Virus record (IMG/VR): IMGVR_UViG_3300044631_002648
Span: 6,424-70,423 of that record
DNA length: 64,000 nt
Direction: 5' to 3' (one strand)
DNA from: a virus
This document shows positions 216 through 9,940 of this stretch, in pieces (position 1 is the stretch's first letter; the number at the start of each line of letters is the position of its first letter). Position numbers and translations under genes: made by a program. The notes under the pieces were generated by a model that did not search any database, was not told where the DNA came from, and saw only the letters and a program-made list of their open reading frames with translations.

Positions 216-562
216 CTTAATGGTTGTGGCCTCCGATGAGCAATTTTAACCTTCAGGAGCAGTGCTCAACTAAAGGGACAGTACGCCTCTGAGGCTCATG
301 CTGTGCCTTGGAAAGGTCGTAACGACCGTTCCCGTACTGTCTCACCCGTCCACCCTTGCGGCTCGCCACGCTAATGACGAGGGAAGCCGTTAAGCCTCCA
401 GGACCGACCACTCAGAAATAGTAGCACTTGCCACCACCAAGGCATCCACGAAATCAGTAGCAATCCTTAAGAACCCTGCAGTGGCCAGTGGAAATGGGAC
501 ACAATGGTGGGACTGCAGTGCTGGCGACCGCCTGCAGCCTCTGGACTTATTCCCCCATTCTG

Positions 563-919
563 ATGCTTCGTTTTCTTTCTTCTCTCCTGCTGCTGGGCAC
601 CATTGCACCATCCGCCCAAGCAGCAGCGTTTCAATGCGGCCAAGCAAGCCACTACGGCATTGGCGATGGCTACCACGGGCAACGAACTGCTTCTGGCCAA
701 CGCTTTGATGCCTACGCTATGACTGCTGCCCACCCATCGCTGCCATTAGGCTCTCGCGTCATTGTTAAGAATCGTGACAATGGCAAAAGCGTGCTAGTGA
801 CCATCAATGATCGTGGCCCTTACGCTGGTGGCCGCGTGCTGGACTTGTCCTATGGCAGCTTCTCTCGCATTGCTTCGCCTTCTCGTGGCGTAGCAAACGT
901 CTGCATCTCCCGAGCCTGA
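563..919 (+). CDS. rlpA: RlpA-like double-psi beta-barrel lytic transglycosylase with signal peptide
   Basis: ASHYG...G.RTASG.RFD...TAAHPSLPLGSRV.V.N..NGKSV.V.INDRGPY..GRVLDLS motif; hydrophobic N-terminus from ATG 563. Confidence 0.9.
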   Translation: MLRFLSSLLLLGTIAPSAQAAAFQCGQASHYGIGDGYHGQRTASGQRFDAYAMTAAHPSLPLGSRVIVKNRDNGKSVLVTINDRGPYAGGRVLDLSYGSFSRIASPSRGVANVCISRA

Positions 920-942
920 TCAGCTCACCATCCTCTCGAATC

Positions 943-1122
943 ATGCTTAACCAACTTGCTTCCCTGAGCTTTCTGCTCACCGTTTTTGGCATAGGAGCCT
1001 TTGCCATTTACGCTGCGCCTGAAGTGCAGCCCAATCACGAGGGCTTGGCCAAGTGCCAAGAGCTCCACCCCATACGCTATTGCCGAATTGCGAATGGCTT
1101 CCCCGTAGAACCCCTCAAGTGA
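943..1122 (+). CDS. small membrane/secreted protein (59 aa)
   Basis: Own translation MLNQLASLSFLLTVFGIGAFAIYAAPEVQPNHEGLAKCQELHPIRYCRIANGFPVEPLK; N-terminal hydrophobic helix, two Cys. Confidence 0.6.
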   Translation: MLNQLASLSFLLTVFGIGAFAIYAAPEVQPNHEGLAKCQELHPIRYCRIANGFPVEPLK

Positions 1123-1155
1123 TAGGCTCTTTTTCCGCAGGTTTCCTAAAGGCCC

Positions 1156-1206
1156 TTGACAGGGCCTTTTTTCATGCTCTATCATTCCTGCACGTCCGAG
1201 AGGACG
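1156..1206 (+). promoter_or_regulatory. sigma70-type promoter followed by GAGA-loop leader hairpin
   Basis: TTGACA (1156) - 18 bp - TATCAT (1180); CGTCC-GAGA-GGACG at 1193-1206. Confidence 0.7.
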
Positions 1207-1224
1207 CCCTTCCTTTTGAAAACC

Positions 1225-1620
1225 ATGACGGTCGCTTCTCATTTCCGCGTTAGCAAGAAAGCTCAAAGTGCTTTGGGCATCACTGTGCTTAACGTGCTCC
1301 AGCATTGCGTGGTCATCCGCACTGAGCGTGGCCCTCGCTTTATGAGCCGCAAAGTATTTGATTCTTGGGAAGCCAAGCAGCGTGCCCACAAGGCACGCGC
1401 ATGCCATGCCCGATATATCGCTAACAATGTGTGGATGGTTCTCGATCCCACCACGCCTACGGATGCTCACACCGTCATCCGTACTGGCGCTTATGTCAAA
1501 GGAATTGAAGGAAAATGGAGCTGCACCTGCACTGATGCCCATTTCATGCTTGAGCGTGGCCAAGAGCCTTGCTGCAAGCACATCCTTGCAGCCCACATGC
1601 AACTCAACATCGGCTCGTGA
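1225..1620 (+). CDS. SWIM-type zinc finger protein
   Basis: WSCTCTD...CCKHILA (CxC-xn-CKH) motif. Confidence 0.75.
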   Translation: MTVASHFRVSKKAQSALGITVLNVLQHCVVIRTERGPRFMSRKVFDSWEAKQRAHKARACHARYIANNVWMVLDPTTPTDAHTVIRTGAYVKGIEGKWSCTCTDAHFMLERGQEPCCKHILAAHMQLNIGS

Positions 1621-1799
1621 ACGACCCTTATTCCCCCGCATTGGACTCCCTGGAAAATAAGCTCGGCGATGCACTGGGCCTAGCCATTGGCCTCATCCGT
1701 CATCCAGAAAAGCTAGACAATCGCACCATGGCGACTATTGAAGGTGCTTTTGCTCAATGGTGTGACAAGCAAATCGATGAAATGGGAAATGAAGACTAA
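1617..1799 (+). CDS. hypothetical protein
   Basis: GTG start overlapping the previous stop (GTGA). Confidence 0.5.
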   Translation: MNDPYSPALDSLENKLGDALGLAIGLIRHPEKLDNRTMATIEGAFAQWCDKQIDEMGNED

Positions 1800-1919
1800 G
1801 GCCGCCATTCAGGAGCGGCCCCGCCAGGGTTGAGCCAGGCTTCACGAGGCTTGGCTTTAATGACGCCCCTTCGCCAGTAACGCCCATGAAGAAATCATTG
1901 GACATTGCCACCATAGACA

Positions 1920-2132
1920 ATGGCTAAATTCCCCGTGGGCACCATCGTCGATCTATATGACTTTGGTTTTCGGCAATGGAGGGGCGAATATATCGTCATT
2001 AAAACGCCTGATTCAGACCGCGCCCTTTACAAAATTCGTAACACCAAAACCAATAGCCAGCAATGGGTCAAGGAAAAATCCTTGCGCATTGGCCGCTTGG
2101 GTCCATTCTCCATCGAAAGCTTGCGCCCTTGA
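1920..2132 (+). CDS. hypothetical protein (SH3/KOW-like beta barrel)
   Basis: KFPVGTIV...YIVIK...YKIRN...QWVKEKSL pattern. Confidence 0.6.
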   Translation: MAKFPVGTIVDLYDFGFRQWRGEYIVIKTPDSDRALYKIRNTKTNSQQWVKEKSLRIGRLGPFSIESLRP

Positions 2133-2172
2133 CCACTTTGCTGTAAGATTTTGCACATGGCTGGAGACAGCC
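2121..2172 (+). promoter_or_regulatory. sigma70-type promoter followed by GAGA-loop leader hairpin
   Basis: TTGCGC (2121) - 17 bp - TAAGAT (2144); GGCTG-GAGA-CAGCC at 2159-2172. Confidence 0.6.
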
Positions 2173-2189
2173 CCCTTACCGAGGAAACC

Positions 2190-2429
2190 ATGCATCGCCC
2201 TTACGACGGCCACAAGGAATCGTCCTATCTGGCCAAGCTTGAAGCAGATCGCCAGGCCCAGCTTTCTGGCTATGGGGTTCGTCAATATCTCTGTGCAGAT
2301 GGCTCTCGCAAATGGGAAGCCTATGGTTGGGAGCGCATCACTGAGCTCCAAGTTCATTACACCAGCTATGGCATATATGACCATATGTGGCAAGCTGAGC
2401 AATTCTTCTACAACATTATCCACGCTTGA
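2190..2429 (+). CDS. hypothetical protein
   Basis: GAGG RBS before ATG 2190; ORF track. Confidence 0.6.
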   Translation: MHRPYDGHKESSYLAKLEADRQAQLSGYGVRQYLCADGSRKWEAYGWERITELQVHYTSYGIYDHMWQAEQFFYNIIHA

Positions 2430-2431
2430 CC

Positions 2432-2710
2432 ATGAGCCTCCGCACTGTTCACGGCTTCACTGTTCCTTCTGTCCACCTCAATGGCACTGGCGCTACCACG
2501 CTTCGCGAGGAATACGCTCATGCTTACGACGCATTGAATAAAGCTATTGAAGCTTTTGTTAATACCACTTGCAATGCTCGTGATTTCTACGTGCAAGACC
2601 AGCATGCCTTTGATAAGGCCCGCCACGAGCGGGCCGAAGCTCTTGATCAATTGAGAAAGAGCCAGCATTACATTGGCTCAATGCTCATGGGCATTTGTGA
2701 TCAAATATGA
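2432..2710 (+). CDS. hypothetical phage protein
   Basis: ORF with P.VHLNGTG...L...Y...NARDFYVQ pattern; tightly packed with neighbours. Confidence 0.65.
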   Translation: MSLRTVHGFTVPSVHLNGTGATTLREEYAHAYDALNKAIEAFVNTTCNARDFYVQDQHAFDKARHERAEALDQLRKSQHYIGSMLMGICDQI

Positions 2711-2803
2711 AGAAGCCTATATATCACACAGAGGGTATATATAGGAATATATATGCCCAAATAGTGCATATATAGCATTTGCAAACTTTCACTTCTTAAA
2801 AAA

Positions 2804-3109
2804 ATGCGCTTCATTTGCAATTACAACGACAACGGCCCTTATTTCGGCGTCACTCAAGGACAATATCAAGCAGTTTCCTTGAAGGAGCTTCTGATGCACG
2901 TTCGTACATGCATGGAAGATAGTGACCAGGCCATTGCAGTGTTTGATGATGATTCTGAATGCCTTGGCATGTGGCTTGATGAATCAGAGCCAGTAGACGA
3001 TGGGGAGGGCGGAATGATGCTTGGCAGGCCAGTTTATTGCTTCTATAGGCCTGGCTCAATGAGCGAAGGGATGTGGAAGCGCCATTTGAAGCATTTCAAG
3101 AGGCCGTGA
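2804..3109 (+). CDS. hypothetical protein
   Basis: ORF track, acidic. Confidence 0.6.
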   Translation: MRFICNYNDNGPYFGVTQGQYQAVSLKELLMHVRTCMEDSDQAIAVFDDDSECLGMWLDESEPVDDGEGGMMLGRPVYCFYRPGSMSEGMWKRHLKHFKRP

Positions 3110-3111
3110 CA

Positions 3112-3270
3112 ATGATTCTCATTGATTTCTTTTCTGAAGCTGCTTGCAAAGGCACTGAACTTATTGAAGGATGGTATTACTATGCGGATGATGATGATTC
3201 TTTCATCGGCGGACCATTTCTAGATGAAGAAGCTGCCATAAAGGCAGCTTTTGATGGTCATGGATGGTAA
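3112..3270 (+). CDS. small acidic hypothetical protein
   Basis: MILIDFF...GWYYYADDDD..GGPFLDEEAAIKAA. Confidence 0.55.
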   Translation: MILIDFFSEAACKGTELIEGWYYYADDDDSFIGGPFLDEEAAIKAAFDGHGW

Positions 3271-3330
3271 TTAATATTGCAGCTTTTTATTAAATAGATA
3301 ATTAATTTTTATTATTTTTTTAAATAATTG

Positions 3331-3398
3331 GGACTTGGCAAAAAGCGGTAAAGGACTCGCTGAAACGCGGTATAGGGACTTGCTAAAACGCGGTATAG
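3331..3398 (+). repeat. three tandem imperfect 22-23 bp direct repeats after an AT-rich tract (about 3268-3330)
   Basis: GGACTTGGCAAAAAGCGGTAAA / GGACTCGCTGAAACGCGGTATAG / GGACTTGCTAAAACGCGGTATAG at 3331, 3353, 3376. Confidence 0.85.
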
Positions 3399-3435
3399 TA
3401 GAAGCGCTTTAGAGGGCGCCCGCGATCCGCGCCGC

Positions 3436-3520
3436 TAGTACGCCTGTACTACCGCTAGTACGTTTCTACTACCCTGATGATGAGAATCATTCTCAATAGG
3501 CGAGCCAGTACGTTTGTACT
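3436..3520. promoter_or_regulatory. three cyanobacterial-type LexA boxes (RGTAC-N4-GTWCB)
   Basis: AGTACGCCTGTACT 3437, AGTACGTTTCTACT 3457 (1 mismatch), AGTACGTTTGTACT 3507. Confidence 0.7.
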
Positions 3521-3585
3521 ACTATGTCTTTATGCGCATACACGCATACCCGCATAGGCCTAGTTGCAAGTGAGAATCAGTCGCA
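3476..3585. promoter_or_regulatory. two Fur-type boxes
   Basis: GATGATGAGAATCATTCTC (3476-3494; 16/19 to GATAATGATAATCATTATC, includes most of the perfect 7-1-7 TGAGAAT-C-ATTCTCA at 3481-3495) and TGAGAATCAGTCGCA (3571-3585). Confidence 0.65.
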
Positions 3586-3735
3586 ATAGGAGAGCCTGAG
3601 AAGCTATGCGCCTATGCGCATAGCGGCATTGTTAAGAGAGATGTGACAATCCGCGAGGCGATGCCTCCCGCTCGCTCTCCTTGTCTGTATTGTCTCTGGC
3701 AAGGCCGCGAGGCCTCCTCTCTGCTCTCTGTTCTC

Positions 3736-4101
3736 ATGCTCGCTCCTTCTCTCAGGGCTCCCTCCTTCCCTCCCCTCTCTGACGCGCTCGAGGCGCTCGC
3801 CTCTCTGCCATGGGAGCGGATCGCCTCTGCTGCTCTCGAGGCGCTCCTGTTCTCTGTGGCTCTCTGCCACGCTCTCGCCGCTCGCCTCTGGCGCGAGCGA
3901 GGCCGTCTCTCTCCCTTCCTTCGCGCTCTGGCCTCCTGGCTCGAGCGCCTCGCCTCAGCTCTGCCCGAGCCTCTCTCCTCTGCCTCCCCTCGCGCTCTGC
4001 TGATCGAGGCTCTGATCGAGGCAGGCGAGAGCTCCTCCTCTGTGGCGAAGGCCTCCCGCTCTGCTCTCCTTCGCCGCGCCTCTCGCCTCGGCCTCCTCTG
4101 A
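3736..4101 (+). CDS. island hypothetical protein (Leu/Ala/Ser-rich, 121 aa)
   Basis: ATG in the shared CTCTGTTCTCATGCTC context; preceded by TATTGT -10 (3688) and GCGA hairpin (3702-3715). Confidence 0.65.
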   Translation: MLAPSLRAPSFPPLSDALEALASLPWERIASAALEALLFSVALCHALAARLWRERGRLSPFLRALASWLERLASALPEPLSSASPRALLIEALIEAGESSSSVAKASRSALLRRASRLGLL

Positions 4102-4159
4102 GGCTATGCTCTGCAGGAGGCCGCGAGGCCTCCCCTCTCTGTTCTCTGCTCTGGTTCTC

Positions 4160-4393
4160 ATGCTCCGCTCTGCTCTCGCCGCTCTGGCTCTGTTCGCTCC
4201 TGCCTCGGCGCTCGCTTCTCCTCTGATCGTTGCTCCTCACGAGCCGATGGTTCGCCTTGAGGCTCTCCCTCACCTCGGCGCCTCTCGCTTTTCTACTGTT
4301 CAGCATTGTCTCTCTGTGGCAGAGGCCGAGCTCTCTCTGATCACCGATAGCGAGCTCGAGACGGTCGAGGCCTGCCTCCTCGAGCACACGTGA
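4160..4393 (+). CDS. island small secreted protein (signal peptide, two Cys)
   Basis: MLRSALAALALFAPASALA signal-like N-terminus; TATGCT -10 (4105) and GCGA hairpin (4116-4133) upstream. Confidence 0.65.
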   Translation: MLRSALAALALFAPASALASPLIVAPHEPMVRLEALPHLGASRFSTVQHCLSVAEAELSLITDSELETVEACLLEHT

Positions 4394-4448
4394 GGCGCTC
4401 GCCTCCTGGCTCCTTCCGCTCCTGCCTCCCTCTCTCGCTCTCCTTCCT

Positions 4449-4643
4449 ATGTCGACTCACGAGCTCCTCGCCTCTGATCTCTCATGGCCTCGGTTCTCCT
4501 TCTCCTCTCGCCGTGAGGCCGCTCTGTTCGCTCGCGAGCTCGAGGAGGAGCTCGCCTCCCCTTCGCTCTCTCCTGCCGCTCGAGCCGAGGCCGAGGAGGC
4601 GCTCGAGGAGCTCCTCTCCCTCCTGCTCTCTCCCGTCTCCTGA
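4449..4643 (+). CDS. island small acidic helical protein
   Basis: ORF track; Glu/Leu-rich, no Lys. Confidence 0.6.
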   Translation: MSTHELLASDLSWPRFSFSSRREAALFARELEEELASPSLSPAARAEAEEALEELLSLLLSPVS

Positions 4644-4652
4644 GGCTCTGCC

Positions 4653-4937
4653 ATGCTCTCCCCCTCTGAGCTCGCCTCGCTCTGCTCTGCCGTAGAGAGC
4701 GAAGGCCGCGAGCTCTCCCCCTCTGAGCTCGAGGCTATTCTCGCGCTCCCTCCTCGCTCTGGGCTCTCCCCTCTCGAGAGGCGCCTCGCCGCGATCGAGC
4801 GCCTCCTCCCTCGCCTCTCTGGCGAGGCCGAGGAGCGCCTCCTGAGAGAGAGGCGCTCCCTCCTTCGCCTTCGCCATGGCATCCCCCTGGCGATCGAGCT
4901 CCCGCTCTCCTTCTCTGCTGCTGATCTCTCCTCCTGA
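4653..4937 (+). CDS. island hypothetical protein
   Basis: ORF track; internal LSPSEL repeat; lacks K, N, Q, T, Y, W. Confidence 0.6.
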   Translation: MLSPSELASLCSAVESEGRELSPSELEAILALPPRSGLSPLERRLAAIERLLPRLSGEAEERLLRERRSLLRLRHGIPLAIELPLSFSAADLSS

Positions 4938-4948
4938 GGCTCTCTCTC

Positions 4949-5116
4949 ATGCTCCCCTCCTACCTACGGGCTCGGCTCCTCGATCGCGCCGAGGAGCTCG
5001 GCCTCGCCTCCTCTGGCCTCCCCTTCCTCCTCGAGGAGCTCGCTAGGTGGCTCCCATCCCCCACGATCGAGGCCTTCCTCTCTGATCTCGAGGAGCTCTC
5101 CTCTGCTGATCTCTGA
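4949..5116 (+). CDS. island small acidic protein (55 aa)
   Basis: Own translation MLPSYLRARLLDRAEELGLASSGLPFLLEELARWLPSPTIEAFLSDLEELSSADL. Confidence 0.6.
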   Translation: MLPSYLRARLLDRAEELGLASSGLPFLLEELARWLPSPTIEAFLSDLEELSSADL

Positions 5117-5235
5117 TCGCGGATTGTTACGGATTGTTTCAACCCAGGAGGCAGGCTCGAGCCTGCCTCCTTTTCATGCTGTAGGATCTCGTGCATGAGG
5201 CGAGAGATCGCCTCGCTCCTTCGCTCTCTGTTCTC

Positions 5236-5475
5236 ATGCTCCGCTCTGTTCGCGCTCTCGCTCCTACGCTCGCTCTGTTCGCGGGCTCTGTAGCTTTCGG
5301 CCTCTGTGCCGCCACATACGGCAATCGCATCTCTCTGGCTCCTTCCGCTCAGGCCGCCGCTCCCTTCGCCGCTCCTTTCTCTCTGTTCGCCTCTGCCACT
5401 GCGGCCTCCTTCGCTCTCGCCGCTGCGGCCTCCTGCGACGCTGCTGAGAAGCTCTCGCGCTCCGCTCGCTCCTGA
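5236..5475 (+). CDS. island membrane protein (two hydrophobic segments)
   Basis: ATG in CTCTGTTCTCATGCTC context; TAGGAT -10 (5182) and GAGA hairpin (5197-5214) upstream. Confidence 0.6.
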   Translation: MLRSVRALAPTLALFAGSVAFGLCAATYGNRISLAPSAQAAAPFAAPFSLFASATAASFALAAAASCDAAEKLSRSARS

Positions 5476-5534
5476 GCTCCTGGCCTCCCCCTCCCATGGG
5501 GGGAGGCCTTCTCTCTGTTCGCCTCGCTCCTGCC

Positions 5535-5702
5535 ATGCTCTCTCGCTCTGATCTGATCGCTCTCCTCGAGCTCCTCGAAACCTCCGCTGCTCTCGAGGCA
5601 GAGCTCAACCATTTCTTTCCCTCCCTTTTCGAGGAGGCCTCTTTCCTTCTCAGTCTTGCTGAGCGCGTCTCGCTTGAGCTGAACACTAGGTTCCCTCTCT
5701 GA
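5535..5702 (+). CDS. island small acidic protein
   Basis: MLSRSDLIALLELLETSAALEAELNHFFPSLFEE... Confidence 0.55.
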   Translation: MLSRSDLIALLELLETSAALEAELNHFFPSLFEEASFLLSLAERVSLELNTRFPL

Positions 5703-5711
5703 GCTCCTCTC

Positions 5712-5930
5712 ATGCTCTCCTCCCCTTCCATCGATCGCGCCTCTGACGCCGCGCCTCTGCTCTCCCTCCTCGCGCTCTCGCGAGGCCTTCGCCTCGCCTT
5801 CGATCGTGGCTCCTACCTGCTGATCGAGACGGCCTCCCCCTCGATCGCTCACGAGAGCCAGAGCCTGCCAGAGCTCGAGGCCTTTCTCCTCTGGCTCCCT
5901 CTCGCCTCTGCCTCTCTGCTGCTCTCCTGA
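5712..5930 (+). CDS. island hypothetical protein
   Basis: ORF track, CTCATGCTC start context. Confidence 0.55.
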   Translation: MLSSPSIDRASDAAPLLSLLALSRGLRLAFDRGSYLLIETASPSIAHESQSLPELEAFLLWLPLASASLLLS

Positions 5931-5991
5931 GCTCTCCCTCTCATGGCCTCCGCGAGGAGGCCTCCCCTTCCCCTCCTTCTCTGCTGATCTC

Positions 5992-7107
5992 ATGGCTCCC
6001 GCTCTCCTGGCTCCTCCCGCTCCCGTCTCCCTCTCTCGCGCTCCTCGAGCGCCTCAGGAGCTCCGCTCCTTCCTTTCTAGGTTCGGCCTCTCCCTAGAGA
6101 GCCTCCTCACCTCAGGCTCTGCTAATGCGAAGCTCGCGAAGGGGAGCGGCCTCGCCTTCTCCTCGATCCTGCATCTCCTCCCCTCTCGCGGCCTCGCTCG
6201 AGCCGTCTCCCCTGGCTCCCATGCCTCTCCCGTGAGAGGAGAGCTCCCTGGCCTCCGTGCTCTCGCTGATCGCGAAGGCCTCACCGCTCGCGCTCTCCTG
6301 TTCGATGCCTGCCCCTTCGCCTCCGAGGCCTGCCGCGAGCTCTGCCTCGCCTTCTCTGGTCATGGCGGCATGAGCCAGAGCGTAGGAGCCTGCAGGGCTC
6401 GGCGCTCGCTCGCGCTCCTCGCTGATCGTGAGGCCTTCGCTCGCTCTCTCCTATGGGCAATCGGCCTCTCCTACCGCAAGGCTCGGCGCCTCGGCCTCCC
6501 CTTCGCGCTCCGTCTCAATGGAACCCAGGAGCTCCCTTGGACTGAGGCCTGGCTCTCTGTTCGCCTCTCTCGTGAGGAGGCCGAGGCTCTCTCTGCTCTG
6601 TTCGATGCTCCCATCCCTCAGGGCATCCGCACCATCCCCGAGGCGCTCGCCTCTGTGCCCTTCCTTGAGCTGTACGACTACGCGAAGGCTCCTGTGTACG
6701 GACGCTCTGGCCTCCTCGCCATGAGGCAGGCAGGCATTCACACCACGGCCTCCCTCGCTGCTGATCGTGAGGGAGGAGCCGCTCGCGCTCTGGATGCAAT
6801 TGAGGCGGGCTTCTCTCTGGCAGTGCCGATCCTGGCCAGCAAGGGAGAGGAGCTCCCGCGCTCCCTCCTCCTCAGAGATGACAATGGGAGAGAAGCTCTC
6901 CTGCAGTGCATCGATGGGGACGCGAATGATCTCAGGATGCTCGATCCTTCGCCCGCTCCTGGCTTCTCTGGCCTCGCCGTTCTCCTCCGTCTCAAGCGAT
7001 CGAGAGGAGCCGATCCCTCCGCGGCCTCTCGCTTCGCTCTAGCTCCTGGCTCTGGCGCCTTCGCTCCCATGGCAGGAGGCGGCTCTTTCGCTTTCTCTCG
7101 CATTTGA
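5992..7107 (+). CDS. GP88-like protein (Cys-cluster, radical-SAM-like phage family)
   Basis: NAKLAKG, CPFAS.AC...CL..SGHG, RLNGT, YDYAK, IDGD..DLR.LDP motifs recalled from the GP88/DUF7227-type family. Confidence 0.75.
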   Translation: MAPALLAPPAPVSLSRAPRAPQELRSFLSRFGLSLESLLTSGSANAKLAKGSGLAFSSILHLLPSRGLARAVSPGSHASPVRGELPGLRALADREGLTARALLFDACPFASEACRELCLAFSGHGGMSQSVGACRARRSLALLADREAFARSLLWAIGLSYRKARRLGLPFALRLNGTQELPWTEAWLSVRLSREEAEALSALFDAPIPQGIRTIPEALASVPFLELYDYAKAPVYGRSGLLAMRQAGIHTTASLAADREGGAARALDAIEAGFSLAVPILASKGEELPRSLLLRDDNGREALLQCIDGDANDLRMLDPSPAPGFSGLAVLLRLKRSRGADPSAASRFALAPGSGAFAPMAGGGSFAFSRI

Positions 7108-7137
7108 GAAGCTCTCCTCACCCTGAGGCTCCCTCCC

Positions 7138-7371
7138 ATGGCTCTCCCCTTCTCTCTCTCTACCGTCACAGAGTACGGTCACACTGAGGAGCTAGCCTCC
7201 TTCGCCTCCCTCGAGGAGGCAGAGGAGGCGCTCTCCTCCCTCTACGATGCTCTCGAGGAGGCCTCCTCCTCTCGAGCCTTCTCTCTGCAATCCGCGATCA
7301 GCGAGCTCGAGGAGCAACTCTCAGAGGCTCGCCTCTGCGCAGAGGCAGAGGCAGAGGAGGAGGCCTCCTAG
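7138..7371 (+). CDS. highly acidic small protein (candidate DNA mimic)
   Basis: About a quarter Glu, two Arg, no Lys. Confidence 0.6.
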   Translation: MALPFSLSTVTEYGHTEELASFASLEEAEEALSSLYDALEEASSSRAFSLQSAISELEEQLSEARLCAEAEAEEEAS

Positions 7372-7372
7372 G

Positions 7373-7612
7373 ATGCCCCTCCTCCTCCCCCTCCCCTCCA
7401 TAGGCTCCCGCTCCCTCCTCCTAGTCTCTCGCTCCTCCCCTCGCCTCCCCCTCCTCGCCTCCTTCGCCTCCTGGCGATCGAGAGAGGCAGGATGGCTCGG
7501 CCTCCTCTCTCTTCGCCTCCCTGGCCTCTGGCTCCTTCGCCTTCGCTCCCTCCCATCCCGTGAGAAGCTCGATAGGCTCGGCCATGGCGTAGGGTCTAAC
7601 TTCCTTCCATAG
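7373..7612 (+). CDS. island hypothetical protein (Leu/Arg-rich)
   Basis: ATG 1 nt after the previous stop; followed by a terminator-like hairpin. Confidence 0.4.
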   Translation: MPLLLPLPSIGSRSLLLVSRSSPRLPLLASFASWRSREAGWLGLLSLRLPGLWLLRLRSLPSREKLDRLGHGVGSNFLP

Positions 7613-7641
7613 CCTCTCTCAAGGCCTCAGAAGCTCCTCTC

Positions 7642-7680
7642 AGAGCCCGCTCTCCTTCCATAGGATGGCGGGCTTCTCTG
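7642..7680 (+). terminator. putative intrinsic terminator
   Basis: AGCCCGC...GCGGGCT stem followed by pyrimidines. Confidence 0.45.
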
Positions 7681-7762
7681 TATGCGCTCCTATGCTGCCA
7701 CACGCATAGAGGGCAACTGGGGGATTATCCCCTATTCGCATAGGCGCATAACGCAAAGCATG

Positions 7763-7790
7763 AAAAAGCCGACCCCGTAGGTCGGCTTTT
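7763..7790. terminator. bidirectional intrinsic terminator between convergent island genes
   Basis: AAAAAGCCGACC-CCGTA-GGTCGGCTTTT. Confidence 0.75.
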
Positions 7791-7795
7791 AATGG

Positions 7796-7948
7796 TCAGT
7801 CTAGAGGGATCTCTAGGGCCTCGAGCTCGCTGATCATGCTGCGTACGCTGCTGATCATGCTTTCGAGGCGCTTCTCGCTCTCCTGGTGGCGCTTCTCGAG
7901 CTCTGCGAGCTGAGCGGCGAACAGGTCGGCGATCGAGGGGGAGGCCAT
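7796..7948 (-). CDS. island small coiled-coil protein (50 aa)
   Basis: Own translation MASPSIADLFAAQLAELEKRHQESEKRLESMISSVRSMISELEALEIPLD; GAGA-loop hairpin (7972-7989) upstream on the - strand. Confidence 0.65.
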   Translation of the reverse strand: MASPSIADLFAAQLAELEKRHQESEKRLESMISSVRSMISELEALEIPLD

Positions 7949-8053
7949 GGGGGATCGGTTGTAGAGGTGCGCGAGCGATCTCTCGCTCGTGAACCAGTCT
8001 GTCAGAAATCCGCGCCGATCGAGGCCGATTGCTGCATTTCTTCAAACAGTTTC

Positions 8054-8122
8054 GCTTATGTCAGTCATAAGCAAAGCTGATAGTGTAAATGTACTACAGC
8101 GCGGTAGCGGGAATGATTATCA
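8054..8122. promoter_or_regulatory. right-border cluster: palindrome, LexA-like box and Fur-like box
   Basis: GCTTATG-TCAGT-CATAAGC 8054-8072; TAGTGTAAATGTACTA 8081-8096; CGGGAATGATTATCA 8108-8122. Confidence 0.5.
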
Positions 8123-8171
8123 GTATTGGCGTGGGCATACCCCTCCGAAAAACGGCCTCATTTTTCATCAA

Positions 8172-8588
8172 CTATTTTCCCCTATGCATATCTGCATCAC
8201 TCTCTAGTAGATAATCAAGGGCTGCGCTAATCAATGCGGGGGAATCATCGAAATGACCAAGACCTAAATTGCAAGGGCTGCAAATGTAGCCTCTAAATTT
8301 GTCAGTGGTATGACAATGATCCAACACCCATCGTTCTGTGTGTTTTGTGCAGATGGGACACGGCCCTGGAGGAGGGGCTGGATTATTGCGTTTTAGACGA
8401 TTGCGAAGGCGTGCGTGATCGCGAATGCATGTTTTACAGCGTGAATCAAGATTATCTACATTGCGAGGCTGAGCTGGAAAGGCAATGAGAGGCTTTTCTT
8501 CATTGCAAAGTTGACACCTTTTTGCTGGACCTTCGAGAGGACTGAATGGCAGCGATGAGGAGAGTAGTGACAATTGCGACGATGCCAC
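8172..8588 (-). CDS. endonuclease VII-family (His-Me finger) homing endonuclease
   Basis: CxxC zinc ribbon plus CPIC...LDHCHTTDKFRGYICSPCNLGLG motif. Confidence 0.85.
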   Translation of the reverse strand: MASSQLSLLSSSLPFSPLEGPAKRCQLCNEEKPLIAFPAQPRNVDNLDSRCKTCIRDHARLRNRLKRNNPAPPPGPCPICTKHTERWVLDHCHTTDKFRGYICSPCNLGLGHFDDSPALISAALDYLLESDADMHRGK

Positions 8589-8709
8589 TGTTGCAACAAT
8601 TCTTTACAGAGCATAGTCATGAAAACTTAGTTGGCACATGGCGAGTCAAGGCCTTATGGCCGCAGACGAGCCATTATGGCGAGGCTCCATTCAGAACTTT
8701 CCATCACAA

Positions 8710-9020
8710 AGAGCGGCCTCAAAGCCGCTCTGTTTGAAAACAAGCCAGACATTCCCTTCCATTGTTATTTCCAGAACAAAGGCGCCCCTCAAAGGGCGCC
8801 TTTTAGTGCCAAAAGCCATTGTTTACGTGTGTTTTTGAGCCATCCGCGCAGTTGCACGCATTTTCCCCTTGCATTTACCAGGCGTACTGGAGCGACGCCG
8901 CTTTTGGGGCGGCGTCTCAGAGCTGGAAGGACATTTGCCAGTCCTAGAAGGCTTGCGAGGGGCTTGGCGTCGAGAGCTTTTTGTTGCCCTGAAGCGCTCA
9001 GTGGCCGCTTTGGGGCGGCC
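8710..9020. repeat. cluster of four GC hairpins with conserved CYCAAA loops, two per orientation
   Basis: 8710-8731 and 8778-8803 (loop CTCAAA); 8894-8916 and 9003-9020 (loop TTTGGG = CCCAAA reversed). Confidence 0.8.
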
Positions 9021-9200
9021 CCTCGCTTAGTGCTGAATCACTGGTGAGACGTTTTCACTGGTGAGGCGTCGCTCGTCAGTGTCGCTTGTCAGAAGACGTA
9101 CGTTGCACTATGCGTATAGCATAACGTGGGCTGATGGTGATCTGTTTTCCCCATTGCTCCCAATCGTGCTACTGTAGGCCAGTTCGGCCTTTCGTGTATC

Positions 9201-9869
9201 ATGGTGAACACCACTCAATGGTGCTTAATTTCCCACTGGGAATTTAGTGACTGGCTCTGGCGTATTGATTTCACGCTCCATCCAGACGCATTGTTTGATC
9301 AATTGCTGTTTTCGTACCACGAACGGCTCATGGTGATCAAAGCTTTTGAGACCATGGGAAATCGCCAACAGCAAATTGAAGAGCGTTTTGCTGAATGCCA
9401 CAAAGGCGGTCCTTGGTACGCCCCTCGACCAGAGCTAAGGCGGTTCGTAGAAGATGAGGCAATGTGTGAAACGCTTACGGCTAAGCATTTGTTTGGCATG
9501 AGAGAAGGCCGCCTTAATTGGCGGCCTGCAAGGCTTGATATGCGATCAAAAATGGAAAGAGCTCAAGGCGAAGGGGAGCTGCCAAAATTTGTGCGGAATG
9601 CGGAGCGTTTTGTGATGTGGGCCGTCGATGACGTGACGGGAGATGGTGAGGCGTGTTTACCGAGGGGAATCATTCAGCATCCAGCGAATTCCCTTTATCA
9701 GCCAAAAACTATTTACAACACCATTCGCATTCTTGTCGAGCAAGAGAAAGTGGCTAAAGCTTCGTCTGGGAGGCTTTTGTTGACCGACAAGGGGCAAGAG
9801 GAAATTGATGGATTAAAAAAAGTGGAAGAATTAAAAAGAAAAGGCAGTGTGAGGACATTGCGTCTGTAA
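9201..9869 (+). CDS. hypothetical protein with C-terminal winged-helix-like segment (start uncertain)
   Basis: TIYNTIRILVEQEKV...GRLLLTDKG resembles a wHTH recognition helix and wing. Confidence 0.55.
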   Translation: MVNTTQWCLISHWEFSDWLWRIDFTLHPDALFDQLLFSYHERLMVIKAFETMGNRQQQIEERFAECHKGGPWYAPRPELRRFVEDEAMCETLTAKHLFGMREGRLNWRPARLDMRSKMERAQGEGELPKFVRNAERFVMWAVDDVTGDGEACLPRGIIQHPANSLYQPKTIYNTIRILVEQEKVAKASSGRLLLTDKGQEEIDGLKKVEELKRKGSVRTLRL

Positions 9870-9940
9870 AAGCTGAAGTTTGTATAAACAACCACTTTCC
9901 CTTCATTGTTCTCTCTCTAGCGTGAAGAGACACAGCGGAA

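What the first reader, a model, noticed from the sequence alone, without database searches (positions are those of the whole stretch)
5992..7107. GP88-like protein apparently recoded at conserved residues to obey the island rule
Seen: a recognisable GP88-type frame (NAKLAKG, CPFASEACRELC, RLNGTQE, YDYAK, IDGDANDLR). From my recollection of the family consensus (RLNGTSD, FYDYTK, NVAVVF), several positions have swapped T/V/N/D codons, which contain AC, GT or AA, for A/L/S/E codons, while the Cys and catalytic-looking residues remain. Inference: the DNA-level constraint outweighs protein conservation. It also shows the island is real coding DNA and suggests GP88 acts immediately after entry.
Basis: partly seen in the sequence, partly recalled or inferred. 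Interest (0 to 1): 0.75.

Follow-up and report, generated by a model that had tools for sequence, protein, structure and literature searches.

The report
GP88 enzyme gene in biased phage island
A real phage enzyme gene sits in a stretch of DNA written with an unusually small set of DNA words, and this has changed its less important amino acids while leaving its essential ones untouched.

Summary
ORF 5992-7107 (+, 371 aa) is a genuine GP88-family gene (Pfam PF17338, E 5.4e-11). It is under purifying selection (dN/dS 0.14-0.33). It lies in a 4-kb island (about 3640-7700) with a C-rich, A-poor sense strand that avoids AC, GT and TA steps. The phage is a lake cyanosiphovirus related to S-CBS4. All 27 related IMG/VR loci carry the same island.

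Most of the cited "swaps" are subfamily traits, not island effects.

The recoding is real but graded:
- At columns 60-90% conserved in the sister clade, T/V/N/K/Y survive in 0 of 11, against 56 of 87 for favoured residues (p = 4e-5).
- At columns at least 90% conserved, they survive in 16 of 17.

Synonymous codon choice and codon pairing do most of the compliance. Amino-acid replacement adds roughly a third.

Two AlphaFold models (pLDDT 95) match radical-SAM enzymes best (Z 5-6.8, weak), with a non-canonical C-x6-C-x3-C triad. Function is unknown. Early action after entry is untested. The cause of the island rule is unresolved.

The parts
5992..7107 (+). GP88-family gene (PF17338), 371 aa including the N-terminal 37 residues and the 65-104 insertion typical of its subfamily
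   Evidence: ORF. Pfam E 5.4e-11. phrog_1617 E 1.4e-25. dN/dS 0.14-0.33. AlphaFold2 pLDDT 95.
6310..6345 (+). Codons of the conserved Cys triad C107-x6-C114-x3-C118, which follows strand beta-1 (residues 56-59)
   Evidence: C107, C114 and C118 are nearly invariant in 118 sequences and 98-100% conserved in all three groups. Secondary structure.
6511..6531 (+). R174-L-N-G-T-Q-E180 motif (family consensus RLNGTSD). T178 keeps an ACC codon and N176 an AAT codon. E180 replaces a D that is 99% conserved in distant relatives.
6673..6687 (+). Y228-D-Y-A-K232 motif (family consensus YDYTK). Both Tyr keep TAC and Lys keeps AAG, all rule-breaking. T231 is replaced by A.
6913..6945 (+). D308-G-D-A-N-D-L-R-M-L-D318 acidic motif, with all four Asp and R315 retained
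3640..7700 (+). Compositional island: sense strand C 40%, A 10%; AC, GT and TA steps avoided; 38% of A occur as GAG and 49% of T as CTC; all genes on the + strand
   Evidence: It is the only such region in the 70-kb genome.
3736..5116 (+). First run of small island ORFs (3736-4101, 4106-4393, 4449-4643, 4653-4937, 4949-5116), with no convincing family match
   Evidence: no PHROG match; only one weak Pfam hit, bpX0, E 0.0031 at 18.2 bits, below its 27-bit cut-off. In-frame pN/pS is 0.20-0.45 for the four ORFs tested. 3736-4101 is found in 22 of 27 loci and 4949-5116 in 21 of 27.
5147..5174 (+). GC-rich hairpin followed by TTTT, next to a short rule-breaking spacer (5118-5190). Probably a terminator and restart between two transcription units.
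   Evidence: Read directly from the sequence. Not reported by the consensus scan.
5236..5930 (+). Small island ORFs upstream of GP88 (5236-5475, 5496-5702, 5712-5930)
   Evidence: pN/pS is 0.35 for 5236-5475 and 0.23 for 5712-5930. No family match.
7138..7371 (+). Small island ORF downstream of GP88 (77 aa)
   Evidence: phrog_3550 E 2.9e-4. pN/pS 0.56.
3331..3632 (.). Dense repeat region just upstream of the island: 3 x 23-nt direct repeats, 3 x AGTACG..GTACTAC, 2 x GAGAATCA..CAATAGG, and TATGCGCATA palindromes. Presumed regulatory region.
7733..7750 (.). Two TATGCGCATA-like palindromes at the right border. They form a 22-nt inverted repeat with 3605-3626.
   Evidence: (I2, 91% complementary). 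The same 10-mer lies at both island borders in L005-L007.

Best explanation
The ORF is a functional GP88-family protein of unknown substrate. Its predicted fold is a three-quarter (beta/alpha) barrel of the radical-SAM type, with a conserved C-x6-C-x3-C triad after the first strand. It may therefore be an Fe-S enzyme.

It is the only recognisable gene in a conserved module of about 4 kb found in S-CBS4-like lake and estuary siphoviruses. That module is written under a nucleotide-level constraint: a C-rich, A-poor sense strand, with AC/GT and TA steps avoided on both strands.

The gene meets the constraint in three layers:
- Synonymous codon choice, which is the largest share.
- The choice of which codons stand next to each other.
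- Replacement of T, V, N, K and Y by L, S, I, F and A at positions of moderate importance.

At the family's essential positions the rule-breaking codons stay. The nucleotide constraint therefore prunes the dispensable part of the protein and yields to function elsewhere.

Shown here: family membership, coding status, the graded directional replacement, and that the bias acts at nucleotide level. Inferred only: Fe-S or radical chemistry, and the reason for the constraint. My leading guess for the reason is escape from sequence-specific host defences by a small DNA vocabulary.
For: Membership.

Coding status.

The island is conserved. All 27 loci with a 59-92% identical GP88 carry it. Twelve islands share AC 0.26-0.40, GT 0.18-0.36 and TA 0.27-0.55, although GP88 dS between them reaches 1.4.

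The bias acts at nucleotide level. At codon boundaries obs/exp is AC 0.15, GT 0.35, TA 0.39, AG 2.1 and CT 1.7.

Graded replacement:
- 0 of 11 against 56 of 87 at 60-90% conserved columns (p = 3.8e-5), and 16 of 17 against 41 of 46 at columns at least 90% conserved.
- Controls show this is specific to the island lineage. Distant to sister clade: 9 of 19 against 22 of 37 (p = 0.41). Distant to island: 7 of 21 against 26 of 38 (p = 0.014). Island to sister clade: 6 of 9 against 30 of 66.
- Of 70 columns that differ, 46 move toward the amino-acid preference of the other island ORFs and 24 move away (p = 0.012). Of 9 polarised island-branch changes, 8 move toward it and 1 is neutral.

Decomposition of AC+GT+TA+AA density:
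- Relatives' proteins with genome-typical codons: 0.158-0.203.
- The same proteins with island codons: 0.105-0.134.
- The window protein with island codons paired at random: 0.075.
- Observed: 0.057.

Fold: two independent models have pLDDT 95 and 94.7. Radical-SAM enzymes fill the top 20 rows and the top 19 (Z 4.9-6.8). BFVD gives a 'Gp37/Gp68-like' protein at E 1.9e-13. DUF5131 is listed as a radical-SAM subgroup in a passage of PMC9477430; that Gp37/Gp68 equals DUF5131 is recalled, not tested.
Against: - The sister clade used as reference is not neutral. In 8 of 10 loci checked its GP88 gene is itself GC-rich and C3-rich relative to its flanks, so polarity is imperfect.
- Counts at single columns are small (11, 17).
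- The consensus thresholds were my own choice.
- The 46 against 24 result is modest.
- Two of the most striking island-specific states are not demanded by the rule. Q179 replaces a favoured Ser, and E180 occurs although GAT is a legal codon.
- The fold matches stay below Z 8, a range the tool calls common. Foldseek on the PDB found nothing at E <= 0.001. Radical_SAM is not among the 25 families listed of 35 matched over 118 members. The Cys spacing is not CX3CX2C.
Confidence: 0.8

Rival explanations
1. There is no recoding. The differences from the family consensus are ordinary subfamily divergence of the protein, and the match with the DNA bias is coincidental.
For: At 3 of them it has the same residue as the island. 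E180 occurs in non-island relatives. Where the sister clade and the distant family share a consensus residue, retention does not differ: 13 of 15 against 46 of 53.
Against: T/V/N/K/Y are kept in 0 of 11 columns against 56 of 87 (p = 3.8e-5), and the controls show no such loss in the sister lineage. T+V+N+K+Y is 8.1% of the window protein, and T, V, N, K and Y are each lower in the island clade than in sister and distant relatives. Change is directional, 46 against 24.
Confidence: 0.1
2. The cause runs the other way. Selection on the proteins for an L/S/A/E/P-rich make-up, for instance to fit partner proteins in the module, creates the nucleotide bias as a by-product.
For: The other island ORFs are extreme in composition: L 21%, S 16%, K 0.1%, N 0.4%.
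Against: AC, GT and TA are depleted 3- to 7-fold at codon boundaries, where amino acids do not dictate the step. Third-position choice depends on the preceding base: GCT and TCT are common, CTT and GGT are rare. Random pairing of the same codons gives a density of 0.075 +- 0.005, against 0.057 observed.
Confidence: 0.05
3. The island is foreign DNA that still carries its donor's composition. It would be a recently acquired or frequently exchanged cassette, not a constraint maintained in place.
For: Island proteins are 73-98% identical between loci whose flanking proteins are only 27-64% identical, with synteny kept. Palindromes bracket the island. The GP88 subfamily gene is 63-74% GC whatever the GC of its genome, which ranges 48-62%.
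Against: The rule persists across islands with GP88 dS of 0.4-1.4 and amino-acid identity down to 59%, so it is maintained inside the module's own lineage. No contig with this composition beyond 2-4.5 kb was seen among the 27 loci. Exchange of the module is compatible with the best explanation; it does not replace it.
Confidence: 0.15
4. The island rule is a mutational footprint, for example deamination on DNA exposed by transcription, and not the result of selection.
For: The sharp borders coincide with a + strand transcription block, and the strand asymmetry is strong.
Against: Relative to the rest of the genome, the sense strand loses about 16 points of A and gains about 16 points of C, while G and T stay near 24-25%. 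Transitions cannot produce that. AC and GT are equally depleted. Functional sites break the rule locally: the conserved codons and the spacer at 5118-5190.
Confidence: 0.05

Closest known systems
Pfam GP88 (PF17338) / phrog_1617, a viral family of unknown function
   Same: The HMM match is above the cut-off. All 26 invariant or nearly invariant residues of the 118-sequence alignment are present. Its predicted structure matches BFVD models named as GP88-domain proteins.
   Different: It belongs to a longer subfamily, with an N-terminal 37 residues and a 65-104 insertion. It has E for the 99% conserved D180 and A for T231. Its composition is shifted: T and V are about 2% each, and L+S about 27%.
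Radical SAM superfamily (e.g. NifB 7jmb, PFL activase 3c8f, QueE 5tgs)
   Same: These are the best structural matches for two independent family models. The match covers nearly the full length. A three-Cys loop follows strand beta-1.
   Different: Z is only 5-6.8. The Cys spacing is C-x6-C-x3-C, not CX3CX2C. There is no PF04055 sequence match among the families listed. No cofactor evidence exists.
Motif-free leading (first-injected) regions of phages that escape Type I restriction (Murciavirus; PMC12455610, abstract read)
   Same: A defined genome block is depleted of recognition motifs. The island uses 38% of hexamers, against 75% in controls. It holds 11.7% of Type-I-like 3-N6-4 motifs, against 34.5% in controls. 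The whole phage shows classic site avoidance: CCGG occurs 0 times against 240 expected.
   Different: In that study one specific motif is missing. Here the whole vocabulary is cut down and the proteins are reshaped. Injection order is unknown. Palindromic hexamers are not fewer than the control range: 18 against a mean of 24 and a minimum of 14.
Genome-wide GC or skew pressure shaping amino-acid usage (established knowledge, recalled)
   Same: Nucleotide bias shifts amino-acid composition mainly at weakly constrained sites.
   Different: Here the pressure is local (4 kb of a 70-kb genome), acts on dinucleotide steps, is far stronger, and contrasts with unbiased DNA on both sides.

Membership tests
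GP88 (PF17338) | Profile HMM score above the curated gathering threshold | tested here: met
   43.2 bits against 24.4, E 5.4e-11, residues 104-319 on profile positions 35-209 of 230. All 118 of 118 aligned relatives also match.
GP88 (PF17338) | The family's invariant and nearly invariant residues (K47, P64, C107, C114, C118, L119, G123, R135, R174, T178, Y228, Y230, K232, T252, S254, A277, P289, G309, D310, D313, R315, D318, L332, K335, G339, F348) | tested here: met
   All 26 are present in the window protein. Exception outside that list: D180, which is 99% D in the 106 distant members, is E here.
GP88 (PF17338) | Same fold as other family members | tested here: met
   Foldseek against BFVD gives E 3.8e-41 for an uncharacterised relative and E 4.3e-15 to 2.9e-10 for proteins named as GP88-domain proteins.
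Radical SAM superfamily | CX3CX2C cluster-binding motif | tested here: not met
   The three conserved Cys are spaced C-x6-C-x3-C in the window protein and across the family. Non-canonical spacings exist in the superfamily (recalled).
Radical SAM superfamily | Partial (beta/alpha) barrel with the Cys loop after strand beta-1 | tested here: inconclusive
   Radical-SAM enzymes fill the top 20 rows and the top 19, at Z 4.9-6.8, rmsd 4-6 A and 150-207 residues aligned. This is below the Z 8 that the tool treats as clear. Foldseek on the PDB found nothing at E <= 0.001.
Radical SAM superfamily | Sequence-profile match (PF04055 or related) | tested here: not met
   It is not among the 25 families listed of 35 matched at E <= 1 over 118 members. 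The profile search of PDB sequences gave a best E of 0.19 to unrelated proteins.
Radical SAM superfamily | [4Fe-4S] binding and reductive SAM cleavage | not testable with these tools
   Needs anaerobic purification, spectroscopy and a 5'-deoxyadenosine assay.
Restriction-evading leading region of a phage genome | Lies in the DNA that enters the cell first | not testable with these tools
   The contig closes on itself with a 178-nt overlap, so the physical ends are unknown.
Restriction-evading leading region of a phage genome | Depletion of recognition motifs relative to the rest of the genome | tested here: inconclusive
   The island uses 1564 of 4096 hexamers, against a mean of 3088 in 35 control segments. 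It holds 11.7% of adenine-bearing 3-N6-4 motifs, against 34.5% in controls. Palindromic hexamers are within the control range. The host's systems are unknown.

The most novel reading that the evidence does not exclude
The island is a 'reduced-vocabulary' early module that is exchanged between related phages. It is written with about half of all possible hexamers, and its adenines occur almost only as GAG/CTC. Most sequence-specific host defences (Type I and III restriction, BREX-like systems, site-specific nucleases) would then find no target in it. Alternatively, every adenine would sit in the context of one protective modification. GP88, a radical-SAM-like enzyme, would be the payload that must be made before the rest of the genome is exposed. 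The pressure is strong enough to have rewritten every moderately conserved T/V/N/K/Y position of that enzyme.
Probability: 0.2. Interest if true: 0.85.

Novelty: new variant of a known kind. Interest (0 to 1): 0.55.

Why it matters
The gene gives a natural measure of how far a nucleotide-level constraint can push an enzyme. Every moderately conserved T/V/N/K/Y site gave way, and essentially no highly conserved one did. This marks the truly essential residues of a family whose function is unknown.

The gene also anchors a conserved and apparently undescribed compositional module in cyanophage-like viruses as real coding DNA. No description of it turned up in six literature searches. In addition, GP88 now has a testable hypothesis: an Fe-S, radical-SAM-type enzyme.

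If the module proves to be a general way of hiding early genes from sequence-specific defences, that would be a new counter-defence principle.

Tried and rejected
Searches and tools that gave nothing useful:
- Megablast of the island against 50,697 phage records found no match.
- NCBIfam gave 0 families for 4 proteins. PADLOC gave 0 for 5 proteins.
- The profile search of PDB sequences gave a best E of 0.19, to unrelated proteins.
- Foldseek on the PDB found nothing at E <= 0.001.
- PF04055 is absent from the phage genome itself. That call returned no loci, so no profile-profile comparison with radical SAM was made.

Literature:
- 'PF17338' is in 0 papers.
- 'GP88' + phage + Pfam returned 10 papers, of which 7 were listed. 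I opened only PMC3556154, where gp88 is a tail tube protein of another phage.
- Searches for a description of such an island found nothing relevant in the listings.
- Supplements were not consulted.

Sequencing runs:
- 24 runs hold part of the island, including 4 RNA runs with shares of 0.06-0.12.
- There is therefore no evidence on expression, genome ends or habitat beyond the run labels.

Ideas considered and set aside:
- The 22-nt inverted repeat around the island as transposon ends. It consists of TATGCGCATA palindromes that also occur singly, so I read it as operator-like.
- A deamination footprint. The net change is from A to C, which transitions cannot produce.
- A purely RNA-level cause such as RNase or mRNA-interferase avoidance. 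It is disfavoured because AC and GT are equally depleted.
- Avoidance of palindromic Type II sites as the island's special feature. The count is 18 against a control mean of 24 and minimum of 14.
- S-CBS4 as a comparison. It has neither GP88 nor an island.

The consensus promoter scan found 1 site on the - strand outside the island, and terminator-like sites were not above the shuffles (6 against 3.8 +- 2.2).
Full report
**What is there**

The window is most of a 70,423-nt viral contig whose ends overlap by 178 nt. Window 20000-32000 matches Synechococcus phage S-CBS4 at 86% identity over 67% of its length. The terminase, portal and RNR genes are laid out in a similar way.

Between about 3640 and 7700 the composition changes abruptly. 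The sense strand has A 10%, C 40%, G 24% and T 25%. GC is 62-66%, against 45-55% elsewhere. It is the only such block in the genome.

ORF 5992-7107 (+, 371 aa) lies inside this block. Stop codons are rare in the island, so all six frames show long ORFs. ORF length alone is therefore no evidence of a gene here.

**The observation**

The ORF matches Pfam GP88 (PF17338) at 43.2 bits against a cut-off of 24.4 (E 5.4e-11), and phrog_1617 at E 1.4e-25.

A library-wide search found 994 relatives at E <= 0.001. A word-indexed search found 68.

The 118-sequence alignment gives AVRLNGTSDxPW, FYDYTK and NVAVxF. Three cultured phages read RLNGTSD, FYDY[ST]K and N[IV]AVV, and their GP88 genes have the same composition as their flanks. 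These are HTVC023P, Sansa and XacN1.

**The gene is real**

Against 11 related loci, dN/dS is 0.14-0.33, with differences concentrated at third positions and dS of 0.4-1.4.

Seven small neighbouring ORFs have pN/pS of 0.20-0.56 in the called frame, against 0.74-3.2 in the other two frames. They have no convincing family match. The only hits are phrog_3550 at E 2.9e-4 for 7138-7371 and a few Pfam matches, all below their curated cut-offs. GP88 is thus the island's only recognisable gene.

**The island is a conserved module**

IMG/VR holds 27 loci encoding a GP88 that is 59-92% identical. Four further weak hits of 28-30% were set aside.

All 27 lie in a block of the same bias. With 500-nt windows 25 were flagged, and with finer windows all 27.

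In 12 islands compared, AC is 0.26-0.40, GT 0.18-0.36 and TA 0.27-0.55 of expectation. AG, GA, CT and TC are 1.4-2.5. AA (0.74-1.83) and TT (0.46-1.03) are not consistently depleted.

The rule acts on nucleotides, not only through amino acids. At codon boundaries AC is 0.15, GT 0.35, TA 0.39 and TT 0.34 of expectation. Third-base choice depends on the preceding base: GCT and TCT are common, CTT and GGT are rare.

In the window island 38% of A occur as GAG and 49% of T as CTC.

**Was the protein recoded?**

I aligned three groups:
- 39 island-clade proteins.
- 42 proteins of the sister ('near') clade, 39-53% identical.
- 106 distant family members.

Composition differs by group. T falls from 5.7% (distant) to 4.8% (near) to 2.0% (island), and V from 6.5% to 5.1% to 2.4%. 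L rises from 9.1% to 11.5% to 17.5%, and S from 5.6% to 5.2% to 11.8%.

The retention tests give a graded picture:

| Columns, by conservation in the near clade | T/V/N/K/Y kept in the island consensus | A/C/E/L/P/R/S kept | p |
|---|---|---|---|
| At least 90% conserved | 16 of 17 | 41 of 46 | 1 |
| 60-90% conserved | 0 of 11 | 56 of 87 | 3.8e-5 |

Using the window residue instead of the island consensus gives 0 of 12 against 59 of 97 at the 60-90% columns.

The replacements at those columns are L (5), S (2), I (2), F (1) and N (1).

Controls show that the loss is specific to the island lineage:
- Distant to near: 9 of 19 against 22 of 37 (p = 0.41).
- Distant to island: 7 of 21 against 26 of 38 (p = 0.014).
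- Island to near: 6 of 9 against 30 of 66 (p = 0.3).

Of 70 columns where the near and island consensus differ, 46 move toward the amino-acid preference of the other island ORFs and 24 away (p = 0.012). Of 9 polarised island-branch changes (I59L, A110S, G113A, A122S, A134C, T139S, I157A, V173L, D180E), 8 move toward it and 1 is neutral. On the near branch 4 of 9 do so.

Where the near clade and the distant family share a consensus residue, T/V/N/K/Y are kept in 13 of 15 columns and other residues in 46 of 53.

The rule-breaking steps that remain in the gene number 63 AC/GT/AA/TA plus 29 TT. Most are forced by conserved residues: K47, K50, N45, T40, T178, Y228, Y230, K232, T252, V278, V330 and K335. 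Avoidable ones also occur, including seven CGT, three GAC, two GAA and three CTA. The rule is therefore a strong bias, not a law.

**How much each layer contributes**

| Encoding | Density of AC+GT+TA+AA |
|---|---|
| Ordinary ORFs of this genome | 0.211 |
| Relatives' proteins with genome-typical codons | 0.158-0.203 |
| Relatives' proteins with island codons | 0.105-0.134 |
| Window protein with island codons paired at random | 0.075 +- 0.005 |
| Window gene as observed | 0.057 |

Synonymous choice is the largest contributor. Amino-acid change adds roughly a third, and codon pairing supplies the rest.

- At all 8 positions that differ from the consensus, the near clade also departs from it.
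- At F227L, V276L and V279P the near clade has the same residue as the island.
- E180 is found in the non-island relatives P0074 and P0068.
- S179Q goes against the bias.
- T231A and T139S do fit AC avoidance.

The inference 'the DNA constraint outweighs protein conservation' therefore holds only at mid-conservation sites. At essential sites the protein wins.

**A caveat on the reference clade**

The near-clade genes are themselves GC-rich (63-74%), A-poor and C-rich. In 8 of 10 loci checked they are also C3-rich relative to their flanks. They do not avoid AC and GT, and two loci show AG depletion instead. The whole subfamily thus carries some compositional peculiarity, and the island clade is its extreme.

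**What GP88 may be**

AlphaFold2 models of the window protein (pLDDT 95.0) and of a 251-aa distant member (pLDDT 94.7) were searched against 48,161 PDB representatives.

Radical-SAM enzymes fill the top 20 rows for the window model and the top 19 for the distant member. Examples are NifB (Z 6.8), PFL activase (6.4-6.5) and QueE (5.7-6.3), as well as viperin, LIAS and SPL. Z ranges from 4.9 to 6.8.

The tool warns that Z below 8 is common, and Foldseek found nothing.

The three nearly invariant Cys (C107, C114, C118) follow strand beta-1, where radical-SAM enzymes bind their cluster. Their spacing, however, is C-x6-C-x3-C. PF04055 is not among the 25 Pfam families listed of the 35 matched.

BFVD links the model to a 'Gp37/Gp68-like' protein (E 1.9e-13) and to DUF7227 (E 1.7e-3). 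DUF5131 is listed as a radical-SAM subgroup in a passage of PMC9477430. That DUF5131 equals Gp37/Gp68 is my recollection.

In phage Sansa the homologue follows two DNA methyltransferase genes inside the replication module. This is a weak hint of DNA-directed chemistry.

I put roughly even odds on an Fe-S, radical-SAM-type enzyme. The substrate is unknown.

**Why the island?**

This is unresolved.

- The equal depletion of AC and GT, and of the self-complementary TA, points to recognition on double-stranded DNA.
- The pyrimidine-rich sense strand adds a strand-specific layer.
- A deamination footprint is unlikely, because the net shift is from A to C.
- The phage demonstrably practises site avoidance. 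CCGG occurs 0 times in 66 kb outside the island against 240 expected, and CAGCTG, ACGCGT, GACGTC, TTCGAA and CAGCCG are also absent.
- The island uses 1564 of 4096 hexamers, against a mean of 3088 in controls. It holds 11.7% of adenine-bearing 3-N6-4 motifs, against 34.5% in controls. Palindromic hexamers are within the control range.
- A precedent exists for motif-free first-injected regions escaping Type I restriction (PMC12455610, abstract).

Injection order and timing of expression could not be tested, so 'acts immediately after entry' remains a guess.

**Verdict**

GP88 membership is certain. The recoding is real but graded. The fold suggestion is weakly supported. The island deserves study in its own right.

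Noticed in passing
whole window and contig (G000): CCGG occurs 0 times in the 70-kb genome, against 240 expected from base composition outside the island and 95 by a Markov model. CAGCTG, ACGCGT, GACGTC, TTCGAA and CAGCCG are also absent. This is classic genome-wide restriction-site avoidance. Other islands of the clade do contain CCGG: 0-12 per locus.
   Followed up: partly
window 3531-3622 and 7733-7750: Five of the seven TATGCGCATA-like palindromes in the window (at most 1 mismatch) bracket the island. They form a 22-nt inverted repeat (91% complementary) 4.1 kb apart. The same 10-mer lies at both island borders in L005-L007. They could be operator sites or recombination borders.
   Followed up: partly
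window 3331-3632: A dense cluster of four repeat families (3 x 23 nt, 3 x AGTACG..GTACTAC, 2 x GAGAATCA..CAATAGG, and the palindromes). The first three families occur nowhere else in the window; the palindromes recur at the island's right border and at 9109 and 45224. It looks like an origin or a complex operator just upstream of the island.
   Followed up: no
loci L002-L028 compared with window 900-9900: Island proteins are 73-98% identical between loci whose flanking proteins (homologues of 2804-3109, 1957-2541, 925-1674 and 9201-9869) are only 27-64% identical, with gene order kept. The module is either exchanged between phages or evolves much more slowly than its surroundings.
   Followed up: partly
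loci L033-L053 and L059-L066: The sister-clade GP88 genes are small GC-rich, C3-rich, A-poor islands of their own (gene GC 63-74%, flanks 48-62%) in 8 of 10 loci checked. They lack AC/GT avoidance. L063 and L066 instead show AG at 0.32-0.34 of expectation.
   Followed up: partly
window 4106-4393 and 5236-5475: Two small island ORFs begin with near-identical DNA (GTTCTCATGCTCCGCTCTG, also at 3730) and encode hydrophobic signal-peptide-like N-termini. S-CBS4 has a 'lipoprotein precursor' gene in a mildly C-rich patch at the corresponding genome region.
   Followed up: no
window 8172-8588 (-) and 488-919 (+): The island's neighbours include a recombination endonuclease VII gene (Pfam E 4.3e-14) and a DPBB_1 lytic-transglycosylase-like gene (E 1e-23).
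   Followed up: no
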